A stretch of DNA of 64,000 nt from Escherichia phage Pu-Krd-SF1. The notes under the pieces were generated by a model. That model saw only the letters and a list, made by a program, of their open reading frames with translations, did not search any database and was not told the DNA's origin. The stretch is from sequence record PQ249395, one strand, 5' to 3'. The translations under genes and the position numbers were made by a program. Positions 8,730 to 10,243 of this stretch are shown here, one piece after another (within the stretch, counting starts at the first letter, position 1; each line of letters opens with the position of its first letter).

Positions 8730-8932
8730 ATATAATTAATAAGATTTTTGGAATTCAGTACATTAAGGTCACATATAAAGTAACATATAAAGGTCCATAT
8801 ACCGATGAACATGAAGAACCACAAGTTAAGTCTATTATATTAGAAAAGGACCCTAACTGGCCAGTTGAATTTCGTCTTCCTTGCTATGGTCATTGGGCTG
8901 ATGTTGAAATTATAAGTATTGAAAATGTCTGA
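8726..8932 (+). CDS. Hypothetical protein (30.4-like)
   Basis: 68-aa ORF, coupled. Confidence 0.5.
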   Translation: MNIINKIFGIQYIKVTYKVTYKGPYTDEHEEPQVKSIILEKDPNWPVEFRLPCYGHWADVEIISIENV

Positions 8933-9383
8933 GTTAGAGATTAGAAGCAATTTTAGATGGCCATCATGCGCATTAAGTAATTTCGCCCATTGGCCTTTCG
9001 TTATGGATGGTATTCAATTTGGAGGTCTTGAAGGATTCCTCCAAGGATGCAAGGTGAAAAACGTTGAACAACAACGTCGTATATTTGGGTTATCCGGGCT
9101 TGCCGCCCAACAAGCTGGACGAGCTTATGCTAGAGCTCAGGACCGTGGGACCCTCTTCTGGCTTGGAGTTCCGTTTTCAAGATACTCCCCGGCGTGGAAA
9201 GAATTATACACAAATGCATATTTTGAAGCAGCGATCCAAAACAAGGGCTTTCGTGATGCATTACAAGCCTCGAAAGGAAAAGTTTTGAAGCACAGCATGG
9301 CTAGTGGTCTAACAAAAGATGATACAATACTAACCGAAGCTGAATTTATTGATGTGTTAAACCTATTAAGAGACTCTCTATGA
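8919..9383 (+). CDS. NADAR/YbiA-like (DUF1768-type) protein, 30.3-like
   Basis: 154 aa; N-terminal LSNFAHWPFVMDGIQF resembles the YbiA signature FSNFA-WP--VDG. Confidence 0.6.
   Translation: MKMSELEIRSNFRWPSCALSNFAHWPFVMDGIQFGGLEGFLQGCKVKNVEQQRRIFGLSGLAAQQAGRAYARAQDRGTLFWLGVPFSRYSPAWKELYTNAYFEAAIQNKGFRDALQASKGKVLKHSMASGLTKDDTILTEAEFIDVLNLLRDSL
9064..9288 (+). CDS. Alternative-frame ORF nested in the NADAR-like gene (30.3'-like)
   Basis: 74-aa ORF in a second frame; coding status uncertain. Confidence 0.25.
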   Translation: MNNNVVYLGYPGLPPNKLDELMLELRTVGPSSGLEFRFQDTPRRGKNYTQMHILKQRSKTRAFVMHYKPRKEKF

Positions 9384-10243
9384 AGCCAACTATTTTGACT
9401 GATATTGATGGAGTATGTTTAAGCTGGCAATCAGGCCTTCCTTATTTTGCTCAGAAATATAATCTTCCGTTAGAACATATTTTAAAAATGATCCAAGATG
9501 AGAAATTTATTTCTCCGGGTAAACTCTTTAATTGTGATGAAGAACTTGGTGTCAAGTTAATTGAAAAATATAATCGATCAGATTTTATTCGTTATTTGTC
9601 TCCATATAAAGATGCTCTGTGTGTAATTAACAAATTAAAAGAAGATTATAATTTTGTAGCTGTTACAGCACTGGGTGATTCTATTGACGCTCTGCTGAAT
9701 CGTCAATTTAATTTGAATGCTCTTTTTCCTGGTGCCTTTTCAGAAGTACTGATGTGTGGTCATGATTCTTCAAAAGAAGAGTTGTTCAAAAAGGCAAAAG
9801 AGAAATATAACGTAATTTGTTATATTGACGATCTCGCTCACCACTGCGATCATGCGAGTGAAATATTAAGTGTTCCTGTTTATTGGATGGCTCGAGGAGA
9901 GCGTGACAGTATTCCAAAAACTGCACAGCGAGTTTATACATGGAACGATGTAGAGAATAAGCTTTTTTCACCAAAGGAAAATAAAGAAAGTTTTGATAGT
10001 GAAAAAGCTATAAAAGATGTAATTGAGAAGATGGTTAAAAACGATTCTTTTCCTTGGAACACTACCTGGAGAACGCCTGGATTAAATCCATATCATCCAT
10101 ATTATACACATCCATATAATCCATATTATACACACCCGTATCATATGAATCCATTCCACACGTGGAGTTATATTAAGCCTGGCGACGCAGGGTATTTTAA
10201 TAGACTTACTAGTGGTGATAATATTTTTCAAGGAGCATTCTAA
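9380..10243 (+). CDS. HAD-superfamily hydrolase-like protein with C-terminal Pro/Tyr/His repeat, 30.2-like
   Basis: 287 aa; HAD motif I ILTDIDGVCL; C-terminal NPYHPYYTHPYNPYYTHPYHMNPFH. Confidence 0.65.
   Translation: MKPTILTDIDGVCLSWQSGLPYFAQKYNLPLEHILKMIQDEKFISPGKLFNCDEELGVKLIEKYNRSDFIRYLSPYKDALCVINKLKEDYNFVAVTALGDSIDALLNRQFNLNALFPGAFSEVLMCGHDSSKEELFKKAKEKYNVICYIDDLAHHCDHASEILSVPVYWMARGERDSIPKTAQRVYTWNDVENKLFSPKENKESFDSEKAIKDVIEKMVKNDSFPWNTTWRTPGLNPYHPYYTHPYNPYYTHPYHMNPFHTWSYIKPGDAGYFNRLTSGDNIFQGAF

What the first reader, a model, noticed from the sequence alone, without database searches (positions are those of the whole stretch)
8919..10243. NADAR-like and HAD-like gene pair upstream of ligase and alt; possible ADP-ribose/nucleotide-processing module
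ORF 8919..9383 carries the YbiA/NADAR-type signature (LSNFAHWPFVMDGIQF versus FSNFA-WP--VDG in E. coli YbiA). NADAR-family enzymes are N-glycosidases, and some have been reported to remove ADP-ribose from guanine bases modified by DarT-type toxins. The next gene has a HAD motif I (DIDGV) typical of phosphatases and nucleotidases. Both lie on the same transcription unit as alt, an ADP-ribosyltransferase injected with the DNA. That a phage encodes both a writer and a putative eraser or scavenger of ADP-ribose nearby is suggestive but unproven here. A 74-aa alternative-frame ORF (9064..9288) is nested inside the NADAR-like gene.
Basis: partly seen in the sequence, partly recalled or inferred. Interest (0 to 1): 0.5.

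Follow-up and report, generated by a model that had tools for sequence, protein, structure and literature searches.

The report
T4 AdfN NADAR plus HAD phosphatase
The two genes are phage T4 genes 30.3 and 30.2: the first is AdfN, an enzyme already shown to strip ADP-ribose off phage DNA and defeat the bacterial DarTG1 defence, and the second is a conserved but uncharacterised HAD-type phosphatase, so the finding is correct but mostly already known.

Summary
The window is a T4-type phage (Tequatrovirus). Both ORFs exist as described. The first is T4 gene 30.3, whose real start is the ATG at 8925, not the TTG at 8919. It is 149/152 identical to T4 gp30.3. That protein was published in 2023-2025 as AdfN, a NADAR-fold DNA ADP-ribosylglycohydrolase that removes DarT1-made ADP-ribose from guanine and gives T-even phages resistance to DarTG1. 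My own tests agree: a pLDDT-93 model hits only NADAR structures, the family profile hits YbiA, and E36, K43, H123 and the C-terminal helix are intact. The second gene is T4 30.2. It has all four HAD phosphatase motifs (D8/D10, T96, K132, D150-D151) and a helical C1 cap. Its closest fold and sequence match, only weakly ahead of other HADs, is the 5'(3')-deoxyribonucleotidases. Its substrate is unknown. It keeps company with DNA ligase (65 of 75 loci) more faithfully than with the NADAR (36 of 77), so a dedicated NADAR-HAD module is not supported. alt has its own late promoter behind a hairpin and is not demonstrably co-transcribed. The nested ORF is T4 30.3'. It shows no purifying selection and has lost its ATG here. 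Verdict: already known, low interest.

The parts
8925..9383 (+). Gene 30.3 = adfN. It encodes a NADAR-fold DNA ADP-ribosylglycohydrolase of 152 aa. Catalytic residues are E36, K43 and H123, and the C-terminal helix spans 138-151.
   Evidence: Pfam Phage_30_3 at 1.5e-69. 149/152 identical to T4 gp30.3. AF2 model with pLDDT 93.4. The top three PDB fold hits are the NADAR structures 2B3W, 8BAU and 8BAT. E36 and H123 are invariant and K43 is conserved in at least 90% of 60 homologues. The function is published for the T4 orthologue (PMC11825919).
9064..9288 (+). Nested +1-frame ORF, equal to T4 30.3' (Pfam DUF2883). It is probably not a conserved coding gene.
   Evidence: Pfam DUF2883 at 5e-51. 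The T4 annotation reads 'internal translation'. The T4 ATG is ACG here through a change that is synonymous in 30.3. In this frame pN is about equal to pS (0.187 vs 0.190), and the frame is interrupted in locus L013. An open stretch this long arises in 8.8% of synonymous-codon permutations.
9380..10243 (+). Gene 30.2. It encodes a HAD-superfamily phosphatase with a C1 cap (core residues 1 to about 195), followed by a helix and a disordered Pro/Tyr/His-rich tail. Its start overlaps the 30.3 stop (ATGA).
10086..10141 (+). 24-nt tandem repeat (2.3 copies) inside the 30.2 tail. It makes the tail 9 aa longer than in T4.
   Evidence: TRF result. Pairwise alignment with T4 gp30.2.
10243..10509 (+). 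Gene 30.1 (DUF3045), lying between the HAD gene and ligase.
   Evidence: Pfam DUF3045 at 2.2e-63. T4 annotation.
10509..11972 (+). Gene 30, the ATP-dependent DNA ligase. It is the most faithful neighbour of gene 30.2 across T4-like phages.
   Evidence: 99% identical to T4 ligase. It lies within 1 kb downstream of the 30.2 homologue in 65 of 75 loci.
12153..12186 (+). Hairpin (12153-12176) followed by the late-promoter box TATAAATA (12179-12186). Together they separate the tightly packed 30.x/ligase/alt.1 gene string from alt.
   Evidence: RNA fold of -13.5 kcal/mol, z -3.7. Motif search. Junction sequences.
12207..14258 (+). alt, the virion-packaged ADP-ribosyltransferase. It is genomic context only and is not shown to be functionally linked to the pair.
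   Evidence: 99% identical to T4 Alt by tblastn. T4 annotation.

Best explanation
The region is the T4 gene string 30.3 (with 30.3' nested inside it), 30.2, 30.1, 30 (ligase) and alt.1, followed by alt. Gene 30.3 encodes AdfN, a stand-alone NADAR enzyme. When the host DarT1 toxin of a DarTG1 defence system ADP-ribosylates guanine bases in phage DNA, AdfN hydrolyses the N-glycosidic bond between the guanine and the ADP-ribose. This releases ADP-ribose and restores replicable DNA, so the phage escapes DarTG1. That mechanism is shown experimentally for the T4 protein. It is inferred here from 98% identity and from intact catalytic residues E36, K43 and H123 and an intact C-terminal helix. Gene 30.2 overlaps the 30.3 stop codon (ATGA), which allows but does not prove translational coupling. 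It encodes a Mg-dependent HAD phosphomonoesterase with a helical C1 cap. That architecture admits small phosphorylated metabolites rather than macromolecules. The most likely substrate class is nucleoside monophosphates, as for cdN/mdN-type 5'(3')-deoxyribonucleotidases. This step is inference only and the actual substrate is unknown. I regard the two genes as neighbours in an old, conserved block of small genes in T4-like phages, not as a dedicated two-enzyme pathway.
For: Identity: the DNA is 100% identical to Tequatrovirus isolates and 96-98% to many T4-type phages, with the T4 gene order. For the NADAR. Published biochemistry and genetics of T4 gp30.3 cover in-vitro guanine-ADPr hydrolysis (PMC11125620). 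Also published: a T4-GT7 adfN deletion phage becomes DarTG1-sensitive, ectopic adfN rescues RB69, E36A and K43A weaken rescue, and the C-terminal truncation weakens it (PMC11825919). For the HAD: motifs I to IV are invariant and sit on the canonical strand ends of the model, namely D8 after strand 4-7, T96 at the end of strand 91-96, K132 before helix 133-142, and D150-D151 at the end of strand 145-150, with the cap helices at 16-86. The Asp at position +2 (D10) is the feature that distinguishes HAD phosphotransferases from dehalogenases (established HAD knowledge). The best Foldseek hit and the only significant PDB profile hit are cdN. W16 aligns with a Phe of cdN in that alignment; by my recollection this is the base-stacking residue. 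Some members hit Pfam NT5C. On separability, the NADAR is adjacent to the HAD in only 36 of 77 loci, while ligase is adjacent in 65 of 75.
Confidence: 0.85

Rival explanations
1. gp30.2 is the unknown T-even factor that potentiates AdfN. Under this reading the HAD protein stabilises, localises or chemically assists the NADAR, so the pair is a true two-component anti-DarTG1 module.
For: AdfN(T4) works fully only during T-even infection, and the authors postulate an unidentified phage factor (PMC11825919). 30.2 starts inside the 30.3 stop codon (ATGA). The two genes are adjacent in distant T4-like phages of Acinetobacter and Aeromonas. Both occur in about 1,450-1,500 phage records with matching host genera. 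RB69, in which AdfN(T4) works, carries a 30.2 homologue that is 75% identical.
Against: In many T4-like phages (Klebsiella, Enterobacter and Aeromonas 44RR-type) the NADAR lies about 55 kb from 30.2, while 30.2 stays next to ligase. Co-occurrence at genome level holds for any quasi-core gene of this phage family. A capped small-molecule phosphatase has no obvious role in N-glycosidic cleavage. No interaction data exist.
Confidence: 0.07
2. gp30.2 works with DNA ligase as an end-cleaning enzyme, for example a DNA 3'-phosphatase that prepares nicks for sealing, rather than as a nucleotide-pool enzyme.
For: A ligase gene lies within 1 kb downstream in 65 of 75 loci. It remains nearby, though upstream, in rearranged loci L159-L161. 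There is a weak match to the polynucleotide kinase PHROG 415 (E 0.0022). HAD-type DNA 3'-phosphatases exist, for example the T4 Pnkp phosphatase domain (established knowledge).
Against: The model has a full helical C1 cap over the active site (residues 16-86), whereas HADs acting on macromolecules are typically capless (established HAD knowledge). T4 already encodes Pnkp. Synteny in T4-like genomes is generally conserved, so adjacency is weak evidence. The PHROG hit covers only the generic Rossmann core (residues 74-164).
Confidence: 0.08
3. The NADAR acts as an eraser that balances the phage's own ADP-ribosyltransferases (Alt, ModA, ModB), or it scavenges soluble ADP-ribose derivatives.
For: The NADAR and ART genes are co-oriented and close. 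Iyer et al. [quoted passage not shown]
Against: The demonstrated activity is on guanine-ADPr in DNA, with none on thymidine-ADPr, and the demonstrated phenotype is DarTG1 escape. The papers read here report no activity on Alt's protein products. alt has its own late promoter. The NADAR is not near alt in most distant loci.
Confidence: 0.05

Closest known systems
AdfN(T4) = T4 gp30.3 (Johannesman et al., Nat Commun 2025, PMC11825919; in-vitro activity in PMC11125620)
   Same: Orthologue: 149/152 identical, the same length, the same gene neighbours, the same E36/K43/H123 residues, and an intact C-terminal helix.
   Different: Three substitutions (H22Q, A67S, M125I) lie outside the named catalytic residues. 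This particular allele has not been tested.
DarG1-type (BC4488) NADAR antitoxins and E. coli YbiA (PDB 8BAT, 8BAU, 2B3W)
   Same: The same fold: these are the top three PDB matches, at probability 0.98-1.00. They share the SNFA...DG...E..Q..K motif.
   Different: Only 15-19% identical. The last-strand acidic residue (Asp or Glu) is replaced by His123. There is no N-terminal extension. The protein is not paired with a toxin gene, and in published work it cannot replace DarG1 in uninfected cells.
Cytosolic and mitochondrial 5'(3')-deoxyribonucleotidases cdN/mdN (Pfam NT5C; PDB 2JAO, 2I7D, 1MH9) and the S. epidermidis homologue 3BWV
   Same: HAD core with a four-helix-type C1 cap, a DxDGV motif I, and K and DD motifs. 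They give the best Foldseek E-value, the lowest rmsd, the highest target TM-score (0.63-0.70) and the only significant PDB profile hit.

Membership tests
NADAR superfamily (YbiA fold) | A sequence-profile match to Pfam NADAR (PF08719) | tested here: inconclusive
   The window protein gives no PF08719 hit at E<=1 and matches only PF08010 Phage_30_3 (1.5e-69). However, 9 of 60 homologues in the same alignable family hit PF08719 (best 1.5e-7), and the family profile hits YbiA at E 0.005.
NADAR superfamily (YbiA fold) | [quoted passage not shown] | tested here: met
   The AF2 model has pLDDT 93.4 and pTM 0.88. Foldseek against the PDB returns 2B3W (4.7e-5, TM 0.68), 8BAU and 8BAT as the only matches with probability above 0.1.
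NADAR superfamily (YbiA fold) | [quoted passage not shown] | tested here: met
   E36 is invariant, K43 is conserved in at least 90%, and H123 is invariant in 60 homologues. His at the last-strand position is the published hallmark of the phage gp30.3 subgroup (PMC11125620; PMC11543638).
AdfN (anti-DarT factor NADAR) of T-even phages | A full-length orthologue of T4 gp30.3 with the C-terminal helix (not the RB69-type frameshift) | tested here: met
   152 aa and 98% identical to T4. Helix 138-151 is present with no frameshift.
AdfN (anti-DarT factor NADAR) of T-even phages | Removes ADP-ribose from guanine in DNA and confers resistance to DarTG1 | not testable with these tools
   Shown for the T4 protein only (PMC11825919, PMC11125620). 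Inferred here by orthology.
HAD superfamily phosphatases | Motif I DxD, motif II Ser/Thr, motif III Lys and motif IV acidic pair, each on the canonical Rossmannoid strands | tested here: met
NT5C-type 5'(3')-deoxyribonucleotidases | A profile match to Pfam NT5C (PF06941) and specific structural similarity | tested here: inconclusive
NT5C-type 5'(3')-deoxyribonucleotidases | Dephosphorylates deoxyribonucleoside monophosphates | not testable with these tools
   No biochemical data on gp30.2 were found in the searched literature.

The most novel reading that the evidence does not exclude
gp30.2, the HAD phosphatase whose start codon overlaps the adfN stop codon, is the as-yet unidentified T-even factor that AdfN(T4) needs for full activity. 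If so, 30.3 and 30.2 would form a two-protein anti-DarTG1 module.
Probability: 0.07. Interest if true: 0.55.

Novelty: already known. Interest (0 to 1): 0.15.

Why it matters
The NADAR call reproduces a published discovery: T4 gp30.3 is AdfN, an orphan antitoxin-like counter-defence against DarTG1. It therefore adds nothing new beyond showing that this phage carries an intact, presumably active allele. What remains open is modest. gp30.2 is a widely conserved phosphatase found in about 1,400 phage genome records, yet it has no Pfam family and no known substrate. AdfN(T4) is also reported to need an unknown T-even factor. The analysis here supplies testable catalytic residues for gp30.2. It also shows that ligase, not the NADAR, is its constant neighbour, which should guide any experiment.

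Tried and rejected
1. Direct Pfam, NCBIfam and PDB sequence searches with the two single proteins gave no NADAR or HAD hits. Profiles, family-wide scans and structure prediction were needed.

2. I looked for a conserved NADAR-HAD module. It was rejected because in most distant NADAR loci no HAD, ligase or alt lies within 6 kb. In several genomes the two genes are about 55 kb apart (contigs shared).

3. I looked for ADP-ribose-related neighbours of the unlinked NADARs. Only nrdD/nrdG-type genes and uncharacterised small genes were found in two sampled loci.

4. I tested 30.3' as a real overlapping gene, using synonymous-rate, pN/pS and codon-permutation tests. They give no support.

6. A profile search of the 5.8-billion-protein set for cellular relatives of gp30.2 returned only proteins without Pfam assignments, and those that carry source names are phage proteins.

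7. Literature searches for gp30.2, gene 30.2 and DUF2883/DUF3045 found nothing relevant.

Full report
**What the region is**

The window is a T4-type phage. Bases 8500-10600 are 100% identical to Escherichia phages Pu-Krd-SF5, SF6 and SF7 and 96-98% identical to many Tequatrovirus genomes. Aligned with the annotated T4 record, the genes on the + strand are as follows:

| Gene | Window coordinates |
|---|---|
| 30.4 | 8726-8932 |
| 30.3 | 8925-9383 |
| 30.3' (nested) | 9064-9288 |
| 30.2 | 9380-10243 |
| 30.1 | 10243-10509 |
| 30 (DNA ligase) | 10509-11972 |
| alt.1 | 11969-12157 |
| alt | 12207-14258 |

From 30.6 to alt.1, neighbouring genes overlap by 1 to 8 nt, including an ATGA overlap between 30.3 and 30.2.

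**Checking the observation**

The one correction concerns the start of the first gene. T4 annotates 459 nt, which corresponds to the ATG at 8925. With that start, the published catalytic residues fall at E36 and K43. The TTG at 8919 is simply the first start codon an ORF finder meets.

The motif resemblance to YbiA is real. A profile of 60 homologues hits YbiA (PDB 2B3W) as the only PDB sequence, at E 0.005, and the alignment covers exactly LSNFA..F..DG....E.F.Q..KF.

**The first gene: gp30.3 = AdfN**

By direct hmmscan the protein matches only Pfam Phage_30_3 (1.5e-69) and not NADAR PF08719. Three independent lines nevertheless place it in the NADAR superfamily:

- 9 of 60 members of the same family hit PF08719, best E 1.5e-7.
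- The family profile hits YbiA.
- An AlphaFold2 model with mean pLDDT 93.4 finds YbiA 2B3W, the Phytophthora NADAR 8BAU and the Geobacter lovleyi NADAR 8BAT as its top three PDB matches, with probability 0.98-1.00. Every other hit is noise.

E36 and H123 are invariant and K43 is nearly invariant in the family.

The literature settles the function:

- Schuller et al. 2023 (PMC11543638) showed that NADARs hydrolyse guanine-ADP-ribose, and noted that phage NADARs carry His at the last-strand catalytic position.
- A 2024 study (PMC11125620) showed that the purified T4 phage NADAR (gp30.3) removes ADP-ribose from guanosine but not from thymidine, and cannot protect uninfected cells from DarT1.
- Johannesman et al. 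2025 (PMC11825919) renamed gene 30.3 adfN.
  - They showed that it is sufficient (ectopic expression rescues RB69) for T-even resistance to DarTG1, and necessary in a T4-GT7 deletion phage.
  - E36A, K43A and loss of the C-terminal helix each weaken it.
  - It works fully only in a T-even infection, which implies an unidentified phage factor.

The window's protein is 149/152 identical to T4 AdfN. The differences are H22Q, A67S and M125I. It is full length with helix 138-151 intact. It is therefore an orthologue of a characterised enzyme.

**The second gene: gp30.2**

The protein has no Pfam or NCBIfam hit and belongs to PHROG 420, of unknown function. In 60 homologues D8, D10, G11, K132, D150 and D151 are invariant, and T96 is nearly so. 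These are HAD motifs I to IV.

In the AlphaFold2 model the core has pLDDT above 90 up to about residue 195. The motifs sit at the canonical positions:

- D8 after strand 4-7.
- T96 at the end of strand 91-96.
- K132 before helix 133-142.
- D150-D151 at the end of strand 145-150.

A helical insertion at residues 16-86 forms a C1-type cap. The Asp two residues after the nucleophile marks a phosphotransferase rather than a dehalogenase (established HAD knowledge).

Foldseek gives 117 PDB hits at E<=1e-3. The best is mouse cytosolic 5'(3')-deoxyribonucleotidase 2JAO (2.6e-8). The NT5C-type structures have the lowest rmsd and the highest target TM-scores, 0.63-0.70. The family profile hits the same protein as its only significant PDB match, at E 0.018, with W16 aligned to a Phe of cdN. 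Four of 60 members hit Pfam NT5C and eight hit PF00702.

After the core come a helix (202-220) and a disordered Pro/Tyr/His-rich tail. A 24-nt tandem repeat makes the tail 9 residues longer than in T4. The tail is absent or different in many homologues.

**Are the two genes a module?**

I fetched 80 viral loci around gp30.3 homologues and 79 around gp30.2 homologues and mapped the neighbours by tblastn.

- Around gp30.2, ligase lies within 1 kb downstream in 65 of 75 informative loci. The NADAR lies within 1.5 kb upstream in 36 of 77.
- Around distant NADARs (about 40% identity), most loci contain no HAD, ligase or alt within 6 kb.
- Several complete genomes appear in both lists with the two genes about 55 kb apart.
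- In two sampled unlinked loci the NADAR sits beside nrdD/nrdG-type genes or anonymous small genes.

At genome level both genes are near-universal in T4-like phages of Proteobacteria: 1509 and 1437 records, with matching host genera. That is equally true of other quasi-core genes.

These counts include many close relatives and are not independent events. The pattern suggests an old syntenic block in which the HAD gene goes with ligase and the NADAR is movable. It does not suggest an obligate NADAR-HAD pair. The possibility that gp30.2 is the missing AdfN potentiator cannot be excluded, and I give it about 7%.

**Relation to alt**

The window's Alt is 99% identical to T4 Alt. Directly after the alt.1 stop codon there is a 10-bp stem with a UUCG loop (12153-12176, -13.5 kcal/mol, z -3.7). 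The T4 late-promoter consensus TATAAATA follows at 12179-12186, 21 nt before the alt ATG.

This fits Alt being made late for packaging (T4 annotation). It argues against treating alt and the 30.x genes as one regulatory unit, although read-through is not excluded.

The published substrate of AdfN is DNA modified by a host toxin. No evidence links it to Alt's protein targets. Iyer et al. 2022 had already noted the NADAR-ART context in T4-like phages (PMC9503650).

**The nested ORF**

The nested ORF is T4 30.3', which is why Pfam has a family for it (DUF2883). T4 has AAGGTG followed by an ATG. In this phage the ATG is ACG, through a change that is synonymous in 30.3, which leaves only a TTG start.

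Comparison of the T4-type group with the group about 86% identical gives these results:

- In the 30.3' frame, pN is 0.187 and pS is 0.190. Within the T4 group, pN (0.076) exceeds pS (0.033).
- Synonymous divergence of 30.3 inside the overlap is not clearly reduced: 0.50 vs 0.62 between groups, and 0.219 vs 0.211 within the T4 group.
- One genome has an internal stop in this frame (L013).
- An open +1 stretch of at least 76 codons arises in 8.8% of synonymous-codon permutations of 30.3, and stretches of at least 74 codons occur in 10 of 56 distant homologues.

The ORF may be translated in T4, but it does not behave as a conserved protein-coding gene.

**Verdict**

The anti-DarT idea is correct and already proven in print for the T4 orthologue. 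The writer/eraser link to Alt and the NADAR-HAD module are not supported. Novelty: already known. Interest is low. The small open question is the substrate of gp30.2 and whether it bears on AdfN's dependence on T-even infection.

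Noticed in passing
window 12153-12186: A stable UUCG-loop hairpin directly after the alt.1 stop codon is followed by the T4 late-promoter box TATAAATA, 21 nt upstream of the alt start. The consensus terminator scan did not list this hairpin.
   Followed up: partly
window 10086-10141 (gp30.2 residues ~236-254): A 24-nt tandem repeat (2.3 copies, 90% matches) encodes NPYHPYYTHPY-type units and makes the disordered tail 9 aa longer than in T4. 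Long-tailed homologues share a C-terminal GIEYL..(Q/R)PT-like motif, which is degenerate in this phage.
   Followed up: partly
window 9061-9066: The ATG start of T4 30.3' is ACG here, a change that is synonymous (AAT to AAC) in gene 30.3. Only the next codon, TTG, remains as a possible start. A small hairpin (9061-9077) overlaps this site.
   Followed up: yes
loci L083-L161: The gp30.2 homologue lies immediately upstream of the DNA ligase gene in 65 of 75 loci. It remains next to ligase in the opposite order in L159-L161. One GenBank record even names a gp30.2 homologue 'DNA ligase' (P0183, Acinetobacter phage AB1I1M-1).
   Followed up: partly
window 7330-7351 and 7738-7767: A terminator-like hairpin with a T-run follows gene 30.9. 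A near-consensus sigma-70 promoter (TTGACA-18-TAAAAT, 11 of 12 matches) lies just upstream of gene 30.7. It is a plausible early promoter for the 30.7-to-alt.1 gene string.
   Followed up: no
window 14262-14647: Two short ORFs repeat the N-terminal part of Alt (MELITELFD...). They correspond to T4 alt.-1 and alt.-2, which the T4 record annotates as an old partial duplication of alt.
   Followed up: no
L002 (PQ759885.1) 6711-8101 versus window 12207-14258: In the otherwise near-identical phage Pu-Krd-SF5, alt is annotated as two CDS. The DNA differs from the window by a single 1-nt gap over the aligned 1501 nt, whereas the window's alt is one intact 683-codon ORF.
   Followed up: partly
window 11969-12157: The small gene alt.1 matches a recent Pfam family named 'Phage blade protein' (PF24647, 1.9e-29).
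   Followed up: no
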